Shown: positions 9,191 through 16,600, counted from the first letter of the stretch. The stretch is 64,000 nt of DNA from the human T2T-CHM13v2.0 reference genome, Homo sapiens (GCF_009914755.1 NC_060928.1), one strand, 5' to 3'. The notes: a model not told the origin generated them from the letters alone. Program-made: numbers and translations.

Positions 9191-10171
9191 GGTGTGTTTG
9201 GAGTGTTTGTAGACTCTTAGAACCACTAGTAAAGCCCACATAATGTTTACTAGCATGTTGCTTTTGTGATTGTTATTACTGTTGTTTTTAAGCTTATAGT
9301 GGTGTAGAGGTTTTCTCAATCTGTCGTATCTTTGCACTAATAAAAGAATATAGAAAGATACATTTAGGGGAGGAGATAGAGAAAGACAGAGAGAAAAATG
9401 GAGAAAAAGGCGTAATGTATATGATGAAAAGGGAAAGATACTCTAGAGAAGGAATAGGTGACATTATGGAAGCATACAGTATTACATACACTGTTTCCCA
9501 TAATAACGTGTCAATTAAAATTTGGCAAAAAAATTGAGGTAAAGAATAATATAAAATCCTGCTTTGCATTAATTATTAAAATTATTTAATTGAATAATCA
9601 GATGTTCTTTGTAATTAGATATTGATATAACATCTAGTGAAATTAAAAAATCCTTTGATTTATTTCTAAATAATATTTGTATACAAACTTCATTAATATT
9701 TTATATTAATATGTTAAATATTAATATAAATATTTTATGAGAGAAAGTTAAATAATAAATATTTTTATTATTAATACTTTATAAAAGAAAGTTAAATAAT
9801 AAAAGTGAGTATGTACAGTGCTGAGACTGGCACATAGTAGATATGTAATAATTATAATATGAATGTTTCTGGGATAAATATTAAAGGTAACACATGAAAA
9901 CAAACCCATGTTCAACATGGACCTAAACATTTATTATGGTTCTGTTTTAGAATTTAGGGACTCCAGTTTGTTAATCTAAAATAAATTGGCACATTAGTAT
10001 TAATCTTGAAAACCTTGCAAAGTTATTGTGACAATAAAATAAATTATTAATTTATGAATTAATTCATGCCTTCAACAAATATATATCAATCATGTAAGTA
10101 CTTTGCTCTAGCTGTAGACTAGTCACTGAGAAGATAATAAGACTGCCCTTTAAGAGGGGGATGATGTTCAC

Positions 10172-10640: not shown

Positions 10641-10796
10641 AACAGACATATCTTATATCAACAACTGAGAAATGTAATAAATTCTGTTATGGGATAATTT
10701 GTTGGTAGGAATTGTATAGAAGACAAAAAAGATAGTGAATTTTATTAGAAAAGTGAGAAAGTTTAAAAAGCAACCTTGGATTTTCAATTTCAACTC

Positions 10797-11242
10797 TGTG
10801 TTTGTCATGGTTCTCCGGAACAGCAAAACTAATTGTATAGATATATAAAGAAAGGGGATTTTATTAAGCAGTAAGAACACATGATCACAGGGTCCCACAA
10901 TAGGCTGTCTACAAGCTAAGGAGCAAGGAAGCCAGTCCCAGTCCCAAAGCTGAAGAACCTGGAGTCCAATGTTCGAGGGCAAGAAGCATCCATCATGGGA
11001 TAAAAATGTAGGCCAAGAGGCTAGGCCAGTATCATCCTTTCACATTTTTCTGCCTGCTTTAAACCCTGGCTGCGCTGGCAGCTAATTAGTTGGTGCCCAC
11101 CCAGATTAAGGGTGAGTCTGCCTTTCCCAACCGACTGACTCAAATGTTGATCTCCTTTGGCAACATCCTAGCAGACACACCCAGGATAAAAAATCAGCAT
11201 CCTTCTATCCAATAAAGTTGATACTCTGTGTTAACTATCACA
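10797..11242 (-). mobile_element. MLT2A-type LTR (3' LTR of HERV-L)
   Basis: TG...CA bounded; GGTGCCCACCCAGATTAAGGGTG and CAAATGTTGATCTCCTTTGGCAAC MLT2 motifs; adjoins the minus-strand PPT-like GGGGGTGGACT. Confidence 0.92.
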
Positions 11243-13202
11243 AGTCCACCCCCTGTCAACTTGAACCCATACGCATCTCCTGAGATCATACATAATCTTC
11301 AAACAAAGACAATAATAAGGTCATAATTATGCCTAACATAATACAGCTATCCTTTGTACAACCAGAAACGCACAAATCCCCAACCCAAATGCTATTACAT
11401 AAAGTTAACAATAGTCAAATGCTGATATGAAGTCAATAAATCTTATGTCACATGATATAGGAAAAAGGAAATAAAATGTAGGTATTTTCTTAGTACAAGT
11501 GTATACATGCACAAACGTTTTTAACAAAAGGAGGAGGAAATACTGATGACAACTACAGTCCTCACTTCTGCAACTGTTGACGTTGTCGTAACTGGTATTG
11601 ATAACTATCTTCTTCTACTATCTACTATCCATTCTGTATTCCATTTGCCTTCAGCAAGTACCTCAGTAGGTCATGGTTTTTGCCTGGTGAAGTGACCCAA
11701 AGCGTCATTCCTAAAGGGCATAGGCTATTTGCAGTCTGACCTGGATTGGACTGTTGTATTTTCCCATTGACCTTAATCACAGGGCATGGTAATACTAAGA
11801 GATGCCCTTTTAGATCTCCTGTATTTCATGCATTGTTTTCCTTACCTCCATTGTATAATAGTAGACTGATTTCATCTTGATAGTCCAGGTCAATCACCCC
11901 AGCCAACACTGTAACTCTTTTCTTATCCTGTTGACTTAAAGGTAGGAGGAACCCAAAGTGTCCAGGTGGAAATTTAACTTCCAGTTGAATAGAATCATCG
12001 TTGTCTCACCTGGTGGCAGTGTTCCTCCCTCTGGAGCTAAGACCTCTAGGCCAGTAGAACGTAATGTTGTGGGAAAAGGAAGCAAAAATTTTGCCAGTGG
12101 ATCACTAGAGGTGATGGTGAGTGGTGCCATTTCCTCTTCCACCCCTTGATTCCTGGACCCATGAATCCTGGCTATGGGAGAAACAGTACCATATATTGGA
12201 TGCTGATTCAGAGCATACATGGCCTTCTGGAGAACTTTGACCCAGCCTTGCAAAGTATTATCACCTAGTTGGCATTGTTATTGTGACTTCAAAAGGCCAT
12301 TCCACAATTCTATCAATCCAGCTGCTTCAGGATGATGGGAGACATGGTAAGACCAGTTAATTCCATGAGCATGAGCCCACTGCCACACTTCTTTAGCCAT
12401 AAAGTGAGTGCCCTGGTCAGAGGCAATGCTGTGTGGAATACAGTGGATAAGGCATTCCATGAGTCCACAGATGGTAGTCTTGGCAGAAGTATTGTGTGCA
12501 GGATAGGCAAACCCATATCCAGAGTAAGTGTCTATTCCAGTGAGGAAAAACCTCTGCCCTTTCCACGATGGAAAGGGTCCAGTATAATCAACCTGCCACC
12601 AGATAACTGGCTGATCACCCAAAGGAATGGTGCCATATCGAGGGCTCAGTGTTGGTCTCTACTGCTGGCAAATTGGGCACTCAGCAGTGACCATAGCCAG
12701 GTCAGCCTTGGTGAGTGGAAGTCCATGTTGCTGAGCCCAAGTGTAACCTCCATCCATGCCACCATGGCCACTGTGTTCATGGGCCCTTTGGGTGATGACA
12801 GGGGCGGCTGGAGAAAGAGGCTGAGTGGTGTCCACAGAACGGGTCATCCTATCCACTTGATTATTAAAATCCTTCTCTGCTGAGATCACCCGTTGGTGAG
12901 CACTCACATGGGATACAAATATCTTCACATTTTTGACCATTCAGAGAGGTCCATCCACATACGTCTTCCCCAAATTTCTTTGTCACCAATTTTCCAATCA
13001 TGCTTCTTCTAAGTCCCTGACCAACCAGCCAAACCATTGGCTACAGCCGATGAATCAGTATATAATTGTACATCTGGCCATTACTCCTTCCATGCAAAAT
13101 GCACAACCGGGCACACTGTCCAAAATTCTGCCCAGTGGGAAAATTTCCATTCACTGCTGTCCTTCGGGGATGTCATAGAAAGGGGCCATAGTGCTGCAGC
13201 TG
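11243..13202 (-). mobile_element. HERV-L internal 3' half: disrupted RNase H, integrase and dUTPase
   Basis: ORF fragments HVSAHQR...NNQVDRMT...HGGMDGG...CPICQQ (RNase H end plus HHCC zinc finger), WQVDYTGPFP...SDQGTHF...HHPEAAGLIE (integrase core), LAPEGGTLPPGET (dUTPase). Confidence 0.95.
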
Positions 13203-15199
13203 TCCCACAACACATGGGAATTACAGGAGCTACAAAATGAGATTTAGGTAGGGACACAGCCAAATCATATCATTCCACCCCTGGCCCCTCCCAAATCTCT
13301 TATCTACACATTTCAAAGGCAGTCATGCCTTCCCAATAGTCTTCCAAAGTCTTAACTAATTTCAACATTAACTCAAAAGTCCACAGTCCAAAGTCTCATC
13401 CACACCAAGGCAAGCCCCTTCTGCCTATAAGCCTGTAAAATCAAAAGCAAGTTAGTTACTTTGTAGATACAATGGGGGTCCAGGCATTGGGTAAATACAG
13501 CTGTTCCAAATGGGAGAAATTGGCCAAAACAAAGGGACTACAGGCCCCATGCAAGTCCAAAATCCAGCAGAGCAGTCAAATATTAAAGCTCTGAAATAAT
13601 CTCCTTTGACTCCATCTCTCACATCCAGGTCACGATGATGCAAAAGGTCCGTTCCTGTAGTCTTGGGCAGCTCTGCCTCTGTGGCTTTGCAAGGTACAGG
13701 CTCCCTCCTGGCTGCCTTCACAGACTGGTATTGAGTGTCTGTGGCTTTTCCAGGCACACAGTGCAAGCTGTCAGTGGATCTACCATTCTGGGGTCTAGAG
13801 GACAGTAGCCCTTTTCTCACAGCTCCACTAGGCTGTGCCCCAGTAGGGACTCTGTGTGGGGGCTCCAACCCCACATTTCCCGTCTGCACTGCCCTAGCAG
13901 AGTTTCTCCATGAGGACCTCGCCCCTATGGCAAACTTCTTCCTGGGCATCCAGGAGTTTCCATACATCTTCCAAAATCTAGGCAGAGGTTCCCAAACCTC
14001 AATTCCTGACTTCTGTACACTGGCAGGTTCAACACCATGTGGAAGCTGCCAAGGCTTGGGTCTTGCACTCTCTGAAGCCACAGTCTGAGTTCTGTTGGCC
14101 CCTTACAGCCACAGTTGGAGTGCCTGGGATGCAGGACATCAAGTCCCTAGGCTGCACATAGCATAGGGACCCTGGGCCCGACCCACAAAACCACTTTTTC
14201 CTCCCAAACCTCCAGGCCTCTGATGTGGGAGCTTGCCATGAAGACCTCTGACATGCCTTGGAGACATCTGTCCCATTGGCTTGGAGATTGACATTTGGAT
14301 CCTTGTTACTTATGCAAATTTCTGCAGCTGGCTTGGATTTCTCCTCAGAAAATGGGATTTTCTTTTTATCACATTTTCAGGCAGCAAATTTTCCAAACTT
14401 TTATGCTCTGTTTTCCTTTTAAAACTGAATTTCTTTGATAGCACCCAAATCCCCTCTTGAATGCTTTACTGCTCAGAAATTTATTGCACCAGATACCCTA
14501 AATCGTCTCTCTCAAGGTCAACATTCCACATGTATATAAATGCCACCAGTCTCTTTGCTAAAACATAACAAGAGTCACCTTTGCTCCAGTTCCCAAAAAG
14601 ATCCTCATCTTCGTCTGAGACCAACTCAGCCTGGACCTTATTGTCCATATCACTATCAGGCTTTTGGTCAAAGCCATTCGCCCAGTCTCTAGGAAGTTCC
14701 AAACTTGCTCACATTTTCCTGTCTTCTGAGTCCTCGAAACTGTTCCCACCTCTGCCTGTTACCCAGTTCCAAAGTCACTTCCACATTTTCAAGTATCTTT
14801 TCAGTAGCACCCCACTCCTGGTACAAATTTACTGTATTAGTTTGTTTTCATGCTGCTGATAAAGATATGCCCAAGACTGAGCAATTTACAAAAGAAAGAG
14901 ATTTATTGGATTTACAGTTCCACATGGCTGGGGAGGGCTCACAATCACAGAGGAAGGCAAGGAGGAGCAAGTGACATCTTATGTGGATGGCAGCAGGCAA
15001 AAAGAGAGCTTGTGCAGAGAAACTCCCTTTTTTAAAACCACCAGATCTCTATGAGACCCATTCAGTGTCATGAGAACAACATGGGAAAGACTCAACCCCA
15101 TGATTCAATCTTCTCCCACCAGATCCCTCCCACAACATGTGGGAATTATGGGAGCTACAAGGTGAGATTTCAGTGGGGACAGAGAGCCAAACCATATCA
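13203..15199 (-). mobile_element. THE1B-like MaLR: full 5' LTR (14833-15199), internal region (13273-14832), only ~70 bp of the 3' LTR (13203-13272)
   Basis: LTR TGTATTAG...TTTCATGCTGCTGATAAAGA...CCAAACCATATCA; internal boundary TTCCACCCCTGGCCCC; the 209-aa ORF 13452-14081 is the MaLR internal ORF remnant. Confidence 0.93.
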
Positions 15200-15200
15200 A

Positions 15201-16600
15201 ACCTCAATGTAGAATAACCTTAGTAGTTGTCACTCTCACTTTTACAACAAGAACAAAAGCAATTACAAATTGAAAATGAATAACTTTTCTTGGACTCATC
15301 AGAGGGAAAATCACCATCTCAAAATTTGGAAAGAAACATGTGAATAGTAATTTTGATAAATTGTTGGAACTTTTGTATGGACTAACTTCAGGGGCAAAAA
15401 GTCTTGGGAATCCATAGTCTTAAAATTCCACCAGGTTCTCACATTTGGAAGTTGAAAAAGACCTCTTTGTAATCCTGGGAGGGAGAAGGGAGGAATAACC
15501 TTTGTAAAGCATGTCAGAGTGTTCTTCATTACAAATGCTTACTTTCCAGGAGAAAGGGCTTTGCCTAAACACAAAATTATGAGAGAACTTTATCTTAGCT
15601 ATGGTGAAGGGGGCATTTCTCACTTGGCTCCTCACTTAGCCTTCCTGTGCTACCCAAGAGAAAGATTAAAAAAAAAGGGTTAACCAACACCAGGGTTTCT
15701 AGAAAATAGGTAGGACTATTGCATCCAGGAAATGAAGTAACCAGCAGGTGGAAAAACAGCTATCCATAATACCCGAAGAGGGACAGAAATGCTTGTGAAG
15801 GCCACAATCTCAAGATAAAGCCTTGGTAAAGAAATGAAAATCCAGAATATTATAGAAACTTCCCCTACTCCACACTTTATCACACCGTCAGGGGCACAGT
15901 ATAATATCAGTAGATAATGAGAAAAAAAGAGATGCAAGACACAGTCTCTTTGGATAGTAGTGCACAGGGAAGCACCATAGCAAGAGGGCAAACAAAACTA
16001 AGAATATTCAAGGAATTTGAAGCCTCTGCTTCCTATGATTACAGCAATATTAAATATAGATAAGCACCTAGCAAGATTAAAATAAACCAAAGTCCTATTT
16101 ATCATATTTCCTGTTACCTGACACAACAGCTTTCAACAAAACCTTATAAGGTGTGACAAAAGGCAAGATAAATCAAGTCAGAAGATACAAAACAGTCATC
16201 AAATCCAGACTCAGATATAACACAAATGTTGGGATTATCACACAGAGAACTTAAAATAACTATGGTTAATATGTTAAAATCCCTAACAAAAAAAGTTGAC
16301 AATATGCAAAACAAAAAAATATGACAATATGCAAGATGGGTAATGTAAGCAGAAAATTAAAATTCTAAGAAATAATCCAGAGGAAATTCTGGGAATCAAA
16401 TCCACAGTAACAAGAATGAAGAATTTTTTTTTTTTTGACGGGCTTATCAGTAGATGTGACAAGACAAGGAATCGGTGAACTTGAAGATAGATCAACAGAT
16501 TTTTCTTCAGAACTAAATAAAATAAATCAACAAAATGAATAAAATTGAAAAACTACAGAATAGAAGATGCAAGAACTGTGGGACAATGTAAAATGAAAAC
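15201..16600 (+). mobile_element. Old L1M (L1MC/MD-like) 5'UTR-ORF1 fragment
   Basis: GTCACTCTCACTTTTACAACAAG...TTCTTGGACTCATCAGAG 5' motif; ORF1-like CCAGACTCAGATATAACACAAATGTTGGGATTATCA and GAACTGTGGGACAAT. Confidence 0.75.

What the first reader, a model, noticed from the sequence alone, without database searches (positions are those of the whole stretch)
10797..15205. Chimeric THE1B / HERV-L provirus with two different LTRs, apparently at one insertion site
Seen, read on the minus strand: full THE1B LTR, THE1 internal region, first ~70 bp of the second THE1B LTR, then an abrupt switch at ~13203 (GCAGCTG-TCC-CACAAC, short microhomology) into HERV-L RNase H/integrase/dUTPase, PPT and a full MLT2A LTR. 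No THE1B remainder lies left of 10797 and no HERV-L gag/RT/5' LTR lies right of 15199, so simple nesting does not explain it. The flanks are AACTC (10792-10796) and ACCTC (15201-15205, one base off the LTR end). The left flank GGATTTTCAATTTCAACTC looks like the start of the old L1M 5' end that continues at 15201. Established: normal proviruses have identical LTRs, and MaLRs are non-autonomous and thought to use ERV-L enzymes. Inference: a recombinant cDNA from co-packaged THE1B and HERV-L integrated as one unit, which would be physical evidence of that helper relationship. The TSD is imperfect, so a deletion between two neighbouring elements remains possible.
Basis: partly seen in the sequence, partly recalled or inferred. 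Interest (0 to 1): 0.7.

Follow-up and report, generated by a model that had tools for sequence, protein, structure and literature searches.

The report
Human provirus fossils with mismatched ends
A 4.4-kb fossil in the human genome begins as one retrovirus-like element (THE1B) and ends as another (HERV-L) at what is likely a single insertion site, and seven reverse-order hybrids found elsewhere suggest the two were likely copied in the same particles, which would identify HERV-L as the long-assumed helper of THE1.

Summary
Observation confirmed. On the minus strand: THE1B LTR (15199-14833), THE1 internal region, 70 bp of a second THE1B LTR, a 3-bp overlap, then HERV-L RNase H-integrase-dUTPase and an MLT2A1 LTR (11242-10797). 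The two flanks are one old repeat, contiguous with about 5 bp of overlap and nothing missing, so one integration is likely although the duplication reads only 3/5. Ordinary reverse transcription gives identical LTRs, so a plain RNA template switch is not enough. THE1B and HERV-L share their U5 end and a tRNA-Leu(TAA) primer site, which predicted hybrids joined at that site. Two motif searches found seven: MLT2A LTR - THE1-type internal region - THE1-type LTR, all with 4/5 or 5/5 target-site duplications, one as a full three-LTR HERV-L+THE1 tandem. The window's order (THE1 first) has no second example. Best reading: intermolecular DNA strand transfer between HERV-L and THE1 copies made in one particle, then one integration. 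I found no report of this in ten literature searches. Primate orthologues could not be checked.

The parts
10779..10796 (+). First 18 bases of an old interspersed repeat (L1M-like 5' end, name recalled) that continues at 15200
   Evidence: Profile from 23 of 25 paralog loci; 12.9 bits at one register of 26 tried; 4 of 127,966 sites as high
10792..10796 (+). Left copy of the target-site duplication (AACTC)
   Evidence: Sequence; 5-bp duplication is the norm in 10 ordinary THE1 copies
10797..11242 (-). Complete MLT2A1 LTR, 446 bp, forming the 3' end of the hybrid
   Evidence: 80-83% to LTRs of ordinary HERV-L copies; length fits MLT2A1
11243..11254 (-). HERV-L polypurine tract
   Evidence: Sequence and same motif in 6 paralogs
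11243..13205 (-). 3' part of HERV-L: RNase H lacking its first residues, integrase, dUTPase, 3' untranslated region; broken by stops and frameshifts
12155..13055 (-). Stretch of HERV-L pol with unusually few private changes (3.1% against 9-13% on either side); unexplained
   Evidence: no close donor, best 91%
13203..13205 (-). THE1B/HERV-L junction, 3-bp overlap
   Evidence: 4 THE1 and 25 HERV-L paralogs aligned at the junction
13203..13272 (-). First 70 bp (U3 start) of the second THE1B LTR
   Evidence: 58 of 69 columns identical to the first LTR; ordinary pairs 76-94%
13273..14832 (-). THE1 internal region, 1560 bp, ending in its polypurine tract
14809..14826 (-). Primer-binding site, 17 of 18 bases complementary to the 3' end of tRNA-Leu(TAA) with its CCA tail; an ordinary HERV-L matches 15 of 18
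14833..15199 (-). Complete THE1B-type LTR, 367 bp, forming the 5' end of the hybrid (subfamily letter from recalled LTR lengths)
15200..15205 (+). Right copy of the target-site duplication (AACCT, 3/5; or AACCTC with one extra base)
   Evidence: 5 bases in excess of the repeat's usual spacing
15200..15700 (+). Continuation of the host repeat
   Evidence: 25 other loci match; profile hit 15210-15304, E 9e-20

Best explanation
The locus is a hybrid with a THE1B left end and a HERV-L right end that likely integrated in one step, after DNA copies of a THE1B RNA and a HERV-L RNA were likely joined during reverse transcription in one HERV-L particle. Shown: the layout, the contiguous flanks, the shared U5 end and tRNA-Leu(TAA) primer site, and seven sister hybrids with target-site duplications. 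Inferred: THE1, which has no pol, rides in HERV-L particles and is primed by the same tRNA. In the seven sisters a HERV-L plus-strand LTR copy with its primer-site tail paired with a THE1 minus strand instead of its own, giving MLT2A LTR - THE1 body, directly or through a three-LTR tandem that later lost its HERV-L part by LTR-LTR recombination. In the window the long HERV-L minus strand most likely stopped in RNase H and jumped at a 3-bp match onto THE1B plus-strand DNA 70 bases into its 3' LTR, copying through to the THE1B U3 end; a tandem joined at the primer site and then deleted by about 4 kb gives the same sequence. Integrase then used one THE1B end and one MLT2A end. The element is a dead, one-off fossil.
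For: Flanks contiguous with about 5 bp overlap. Both outer ends are exact LTR termini. No missing halves in the window. Shared U5 end and primer site. The mechanism predicted hybrids at the primer site before they were sought: one search gave 3 hits, 3 of 3 real; one search gave 6 hits, 5 real (one repeat), 1 chance. All 7 have matching flanks: 5/5 in L111, L115, L116; 4/5 in L109, L117, L114+L120, L118+L110; unrelated flanks reach 4/5 in 2.3% of draws. They differ in LTR type and scatter on trees, so they are separate events. L118+L113+L110 is a full HERV-L + THE1 three-LTR tandem. Private change is similar in the two halves overall: 157 of 1766 sites (8.9%) and 140 of 1798 (7.8%). Both families are simian-era and DUX4-linked (PMC11359688, PMC8559712; passages).
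Against: The window's own duplication is 3/5, which unrelated flanks reach in 13% of draws; 1 of 10 ordinary THE1 copies is as poor. The contiguity test rests on 18 left-flank bases and indels allow about 2 bases of slack. All seven sisters have the opposite order and a different junction; the window's order has no second example: THE1 U5 followed by HERV-L leader gave 0 true hits in three patterns, and two PPT-swap patterns gave 0. Tree end-branches differ, 0.097 for THE1 internal against 0.064 for HERV-L pol, about 3 standard errors, though the MLT2A LTR goes the other way (0.17) and change along the HERV-L half is uneven (p 0.0009). The 3-bp overlap does not separate reverse transcriptase jumps from repair. 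Nothing here shows a particle; no other primate was available.
Confidence: 0.7

Rival explanations
1. One integration, but the two DNA copies met outside a shared particle: finished THE1B and HERV-L cDNAs were joined in the nucleus by host end-joining or recombination, or integrase inserted one end of each of two cDNAs at one site and repair joined the free ends.
For: Gives the same ends, duplication and 3-bp overlap. Both families were expressed in the same early cells. Two-donor concerted integration is known in vitro (recalled).
Against: In 6 of 7 sisters the switch lies between the HERV-L spacer and the primer site, in the seventh within the U5 end, the place where plus-strand transfer pairs; random end-joining would not pile up there. 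It still needs one integrase to accept both ends.
Confidence: 0.15
2. Two separate insertions landed on the same strand within a few bases of each other (or THE1B landed in the first bases of the HERV-L LTR), and a later deletion of about 4.5 kb at the 3-bp overlap fused them.
For: Weak duplication (3/5); unequal end-branches; microhomology deletions are common in these elements (L035, L057, L110); no second hybrid of this order.
Against: No host DNA is missing between the flanks, so the two sites must coincide within about 2 bases; both elements must also have stayed full length until a deletion joined them. My rough estimate makes that far rarer than the hybrid class already seen 7 times (inference). 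Recombination between neighbours is expected to leave no duplication (PMC1950507).
Confidence: 0.1
3. A normal provirus was partly overwritten after insertion by gene conversion or break repair from a copy of the other family.
For: The HERV-L half is uneven in divergence, which could mark later patching.
Against: The replaced part would have to end exactly at an LTR terminus beside the duplication, where the families share only a few bases with no flank homology; no close donor exists for the low-divergence stretch (best 91%).
Confidence: 0.05

Closest known systems
Template-switch complex insertions of Triticeae, rice and maize (Sabot and Schulman 2007, PMC1950507; first half of the text read)
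   Same: Two parent elements fused before integration, one target-site duplication; three-LTR tandem like L118+L113+L110.
   Different: There both parents are of one family and the outer LTRs are near identical; here the outer LTRs belong to two families, an autonomous and a non-autonomous one, and the sisters join at the primer site.
Recombinant proviruses from co-packaged RNAs (PMC5086612, PMC6894440; passages)
   Same: Cross-family co-packaging and strand jumps during reverse transcription.
   Different: The standard scheme ends in two identical LTRs; these hybrids do not, so the join must involve plus-strand DNA of a second molecule.
Mosaic HERV chains with MaLR fragments (Vargiu et al. 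2016, PMC4724089; passages)
   Same: MaLR pieces inside HERV chains in the human genome.
   Different: Those were on class I and II backbones, often antisense, and read as secondary insertions or artefacts; no mixed-LTR THE1/HERV-L unit with a duplication appears in the passages seen. Its supplement S2 was not read.
Intermolecular plus-strand strong-stop transfer in yeast Ty elements (Lauermann and Boeke 1997; recalled, paper not held)
   Same: Likely the same step.
   Different: Shown within one family in yeast; here inferred across two families from fossils.
Ordinary THE1B (MaLR) and HERV-L/MLT2A1 proviruses
   Same: Each half is a colinear, typical piece of its family.
   Different: Neither is complete; the ends do not match.

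Membership tests
Single integrase-made LTR-element insertion | Exact LTR termini (TG...CA) at both outer ends | tested here: met
   15199 and 10797
Single integrase-made LTR-element insertion | 5-bp target-site duplication | tested here: inconclusive
   Length overlap of 5 bases in the host repeat but only 3/5 identical; controls 7 of 10 at 5/5, 2 at 4/5, 1 at 3/5
Single integrase-made LTR-element insertion | No host DNA lost between the flanks | tested here: met
   orthologous empty site not available
Canonical provirus | Two LTRs of one family, identical at insertion | tested here: not met
   THE1B and MLT2A1 ends
THE1B (MaLR) | LTR of about 365 bp and 1.58-kb internal region without pol | tested here: met
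   367 and 1560 bp; 81-84% to paralogs; no Pfam match in two internal frames tried; letter B from recalled lengths
THE1B (MaLR) | Complete second LTR | tested here: not met
   70 bp only
HERV-L / MLT2A1 | pol ending in integrase and dUTPase, no env, MLT2A LTR of about 444 bp | tested here: met
HERV-L / MLT2A1 | 5' LTR, primer site, gag, protease, RT | tested here: not met
   Absent from the window
Template-switch complex insertion (Sabot and Schulman) | Outer LTRs highly similar, with a complete third LTR inside | tested here: not met
   Outer LTRs unrelated; inner LTR 70 bp
Nested insertion | Remainder of the host element beyond the inserted one | tested here: not met
   No remainder on either side in 64 kb
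L1-made chimeric retrocopy | Starts at the transcript 5' end, ends in poly(A), long duplication | tested here: not met
   Starts at U3, ends at U5, no poly(A)
Product of co-packaged RNAs | Both RNAs in one particle | not testable with these tools
   Inferred from shared primer site and sister hybrids
Single ancestral event | Same hybrid in all simians, empty site in prosimians | not testable with these tools
   No other primate genome is held

The most novel reading that the evidence does not exclude
The human genome holds a small unrecognised class (7 found plus this locus, about 11 by capture-recapture) of THE1/HERV-L elements with two different LTRs and one target-site duplication. They are fossils of intermolecular plus-strand transfer at a shared tRNA-Leu primer site inside HERV-L particles, and so direct physical evidence that HERV-L was the helper that packaged, copied and integrated THE1; the same signature can assign helpers to every non-autonomous LTR family in mammals.
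Probability: 0.6. Interest if true: 0.8.

Novelty: new variant of a known kind. Interest (0 to 1): 0.72.

Why it matters
MaLRs are about 240,000 copies and 3.65% of the human genome, lack pol, and are assumed to borrow enzymes; one review even says they lack a primer site (PMC3769647, passages). The helper has been argued from kinship and timing, not from traces of the act. Hybrids joined at a shared primer site and bounded by one duplication would be such traces, would show one integrase taking both kinds of end, and can be counted in any annotated genome. They also warn that unlike LTRs do not always mean post-insertion rearrangement. The locus itself has no evident function.

Tried and rejected
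1) A 2-bp difference between the window's two THE1B U3 starts looked like proof of two THE1B templates, since 10 of 10 ordinary pairs agreed. Rejected: the short form is about 37 sites against 461, and 3 of 3 short-form LTRs whose partner was found have a partner of another form (4 of 7 partners sought were not found), so it arises by slippage. 2) Pairwise alignment of 300 bp of left flank to 25 repeat loci gave nothing above shuffles in nearly all, because the repeat starts only 18 bases left of the insertion. 3) A family of copies of this junction: none. 4) Dating the halves: not decisive; 4 of 25 HERV-L loci with large indels were dropped, and paralogs were top hits, so biased young. No G-to-A excess suggesting editing. 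5) A recent donor for the low-divergence stretch: none above 91%. 6) Reciprocal and PPT-swap hybrids: one search gave 1 hit, an ordinary HERV-L (L112); searches gave 0. 7) A survey for hybrids with internal junctions was not possible, as long-gap patterns are not accepted; 1 of 39 held paralog loci carries both families and could not be resolved. 8) Literature: ten searches showed no report of mixed-LTR THE1/HERV-L elements; Dfam/Repbase notes, Smit 1993 and most subscription papers are not covered.

Full report
1. The observation. On the minus strand the locus reads: THE1-type LTR 15199-14833 (367 bp), internal region 14832-13273 (1560 bp), 70 bp of a second THE1 LTR (13272-13203), HERV-L 13205-11243, MLT2A LTR 11242-10797 (446 bp). 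Each half is colinear with ordinary copies elsewhere in the genome: 81-84% over 1997 bases and 84-86% over 2409 bases. The HERV-L part carries integrase, dUTPase and a weak RNase H match, with stops and frameshifts. Against 4 THE1 and 25 HERV-L paralogs the switch has a 3-bp overlap, a few codons into RNase H; 5.9% of random joins do as well. No other locus spans the junction among 40 scored of 5755 candidates, and no missing half lies in the window. MLT2A1 follows from length (444 bp, PMC8559712, passages); the letter B in THE1B rests on recalled LTR lengths.

2. One site or two. The right flank matches 25 other loci of an old repeat. In 23 of them (2 matched further in and were dropped) similarity starts about 40 bases before a conserved anchor. 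These loci were chosen by the right flank alone. The last 18 bases of the left flank fit their profile at one of 26 registers, 12.9 bits, matched by 4 of 127,966 window sites; without the 5-mer, 36 of 127,976. That register leaves 21 bases to the anchor, as in 12 of 23 copies (18 of 23 have 20-23); the right flank has 26. The flanks therefore overlap by about 5 bases and nothing is missing. The duplicated bases read 3/5, or 5/5 with one extra base. Among 10 ordinary THE1 proviruses 7 are 5/5, 2 are 4/5 and 1 is 3/5; unrelated flanks reach 3/5 in 13% of draws. The register, not the 5-mer, carries the argument.

3. The mechanistic problem. Reverse transcription with template switching still ends in two identical LTRs (PMC6894440, passages). 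A THE1B U3 at one end and an MLT2A U5 at the other need a join involving plus-strand DNA of a second molecule. The two families share the last bases of U5 and their primer site: the window's THE1B site matches the 3' end of a tRNA-Leu(TAA) gene at 17 of 18 bases and an ordinary HERV-L at 15 of 18. Most THE1 copies carry a 2-base longer form; by my count about 19 of the first 100 rows have the tRNA-like form. A review states that MaLRs lack a primer site (PMC3769647, passages); these data disagree. If both RNAs were copied together, plus-strand transfer across families at this site should leave elements with unlike LTRs.

4. Testing the prediction. A pattern of MLT2A U5 followed by the THE1 leader gave 3 hits; a second with different motifs gave 6: four new, one repeat, one chance match. 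Controls gave 82 ordinary HERV-L junctions and 732 ordinary THE1 junctions, each sharing one motif. All 7 were fetched. L109, L111, L115, L116 and L117 are MLT2A LTR - THE1-type internal region - THE1-type LTR with flanks 4/5, 5/5, 5/5, 5/5 and 4/5; L111 sits in what reads as contiguous L1 sequence (recognised by eye). L114+L120 has the same layout, flanks 4/5, with a later HERV-L nested antisense (its middle was not fetched). L118+L113+L110 is a HERV-L provirus whose partly deleted 3' LTR runs into a THE1 internal region and LTR, flanks 4/5. Unrelated flanks reach 4/5 in 2.3% of draws. In six the switch lies between the HERV-L spacer and the primer site, in L116 within the U5 end. Their LTRs are of several types and 76-89% alike, with only L109 and L110 grouping on the THE1 LTR tree, so they are not copies of one master. 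Capture-recapture gives about 11, a rough figure from small counts.

5. What goes against. The reverse junction, THE1 U5 followed by the HERV-L leader, gave no true hit in three patterns; PPT swaps gave none. The window is thus the only hybrid of its order and its junction is internal, so the sisters support it by analogy. A likely reason for the asymmetry is that short THE1 minus strands finish and offer their primer site, while long HERV-L minus strands stall and are rescued on THE1 DNA, as here (inference). Dating is mixed: tree end-branches are 0.097 for THE1 internal and 0.064 for HERV-L pol, but 0.17 for the MLT2A LTR; summed, private change is 8.9% and 7.8% (11525-11243 not measured). 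A 900-bp stretch of pol is only 3.1% diverged against 9-13% around it, with no close donor; I cannot explain it. A 2-bp difference between the two THE1B U3 starts proved uninformative.

6. Mechanism. Best reading (0.7): THE1B and HERV-L RNAs were copied in one HERV-L particle; a stalled HERV-L minus strand jumped at a 3-bp match onto THE1B plus-strand DNA, or a tandem joined at the primer site lost about 4 kb; integrase inserted the product with one end of each family. Rivals: joining of finished cDNAs in the nucleus or two-donor integration (0.15); two coincident insertions plus deletion (0.10); later overwriting (0.05). One integration, by either of the first two routes, is about 0.85.

7. 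Relation to what is known. Fused elements with one duplication are described in grasses, with near-identical outer LTRs of one family (PMC1950507, first half read). Cross-family co-packaging is established for retroviruses (PMC5086612, passages). MaLR fragments in HERV chains were noted and treated as secondary insertions or artefacts (PMC4724089, passages; supplement S2 not read and may bear on novelty). THE1 and MLT2A are both simian-era and DUX4-linked (PMC11359688 and PMC8559712, passages); mouse MTA is described as non-autonomous and related to MERV-L (PMC6466679, passages). Intermolecular plus-strand transfer in yeast Ty is recalled; the paper was not held. Ten searches showed no report of mixed-LTR THE1/HERV-L elements; repeat-database notes and most subscription papers are outside the library.

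8. Verdict. Real feature; a new variant of a known kind. The locus is an inert fossil, but with its seven sisters it makes the helper question for MaLRs testable by a census and by orthologues. Interest 0.72.

Noticed in passing
L111 (G000:C21:23758870-23762260), L115 (C7:149016650-149019520), L116 (C11:74947670-74950550): MLT2A LTR - THE1 internal region - THE1 LTR, each with a perfect 5-bp duplication; the cleanest members of the class.
   Followed up: yes
L109 (C3:19866000-19869400), L117 (C12:82259720-82262600): Same layout with 4/5 duplications; L109 has a later L1-like insertion in the internal region; L117 has a 557-bp LTR (MLT2A2 length) and a longer, older-looking MaLR LTR.
   Followed up: yes
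L118, L113, L110 (C10:134444500-134454700): Three-LTR tandem: HERV-L provirus, partly deleted MLT2A LTR, primer site, THE1 internal region, THE1 LTR; flanks 4/5.
   Followed up: yes
L114, L119, L120 (C2:4506220-4516300): MLT2A/THE1 hybrid with a HERV-L inserted antisense near the end of the internal region, so HERV-L was still active after the hybrid formed.
   Followed up: partly
window 12155-13055: HERV-L pol stretch with about a third of the private change seen on either side; no close donor in the genome.
   Followed up: partly
window 14809-14826; L108 1439-1521: THE1 has a tRNA-Leu(TAA) primer site like HERV-L; most copies carry a 2-base longer form and about a fifth the tRNA-like form, as expected if the primer is copied back into the DNA.
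   Followed up: partly
L109, L111, L114: Three of seven hybrids have the same variant spacer before the primer site, seen in about 4 of 82 ordinary HERV-L junctions.
   Followed up: no
L053 and L121 (C6:9417649-9423300): Deleted HERV-L joined head to head with an antisense MaLR internal region, no LTR at the junction; the MLT2 LTR lacks its 5' end, so no duplication test.
   Followed up: partly
L123 (C4:104787600-104788200): THE1 LTR with internal region on both sides (tandem); outer ends not found in L122 or L124.
   Followed up: partly
L031/L082, L083/L102, L086/L103: Ordinary THE1 proviruses whose two LTRs differ by the same short indels near the U3 start; likely slippage hot spots.
   Followed up: yes
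L057 (C21:26582750-26583500), L035: HERV-L copies with large internal deletions, one removing leader to RT just upstream of RNase H.
   Followed up: no
window 9690-9803: Short AT-rich degenerate tandem repeat (33-44 bp period) about 1 kb left of the insertion.
   Followed up: no
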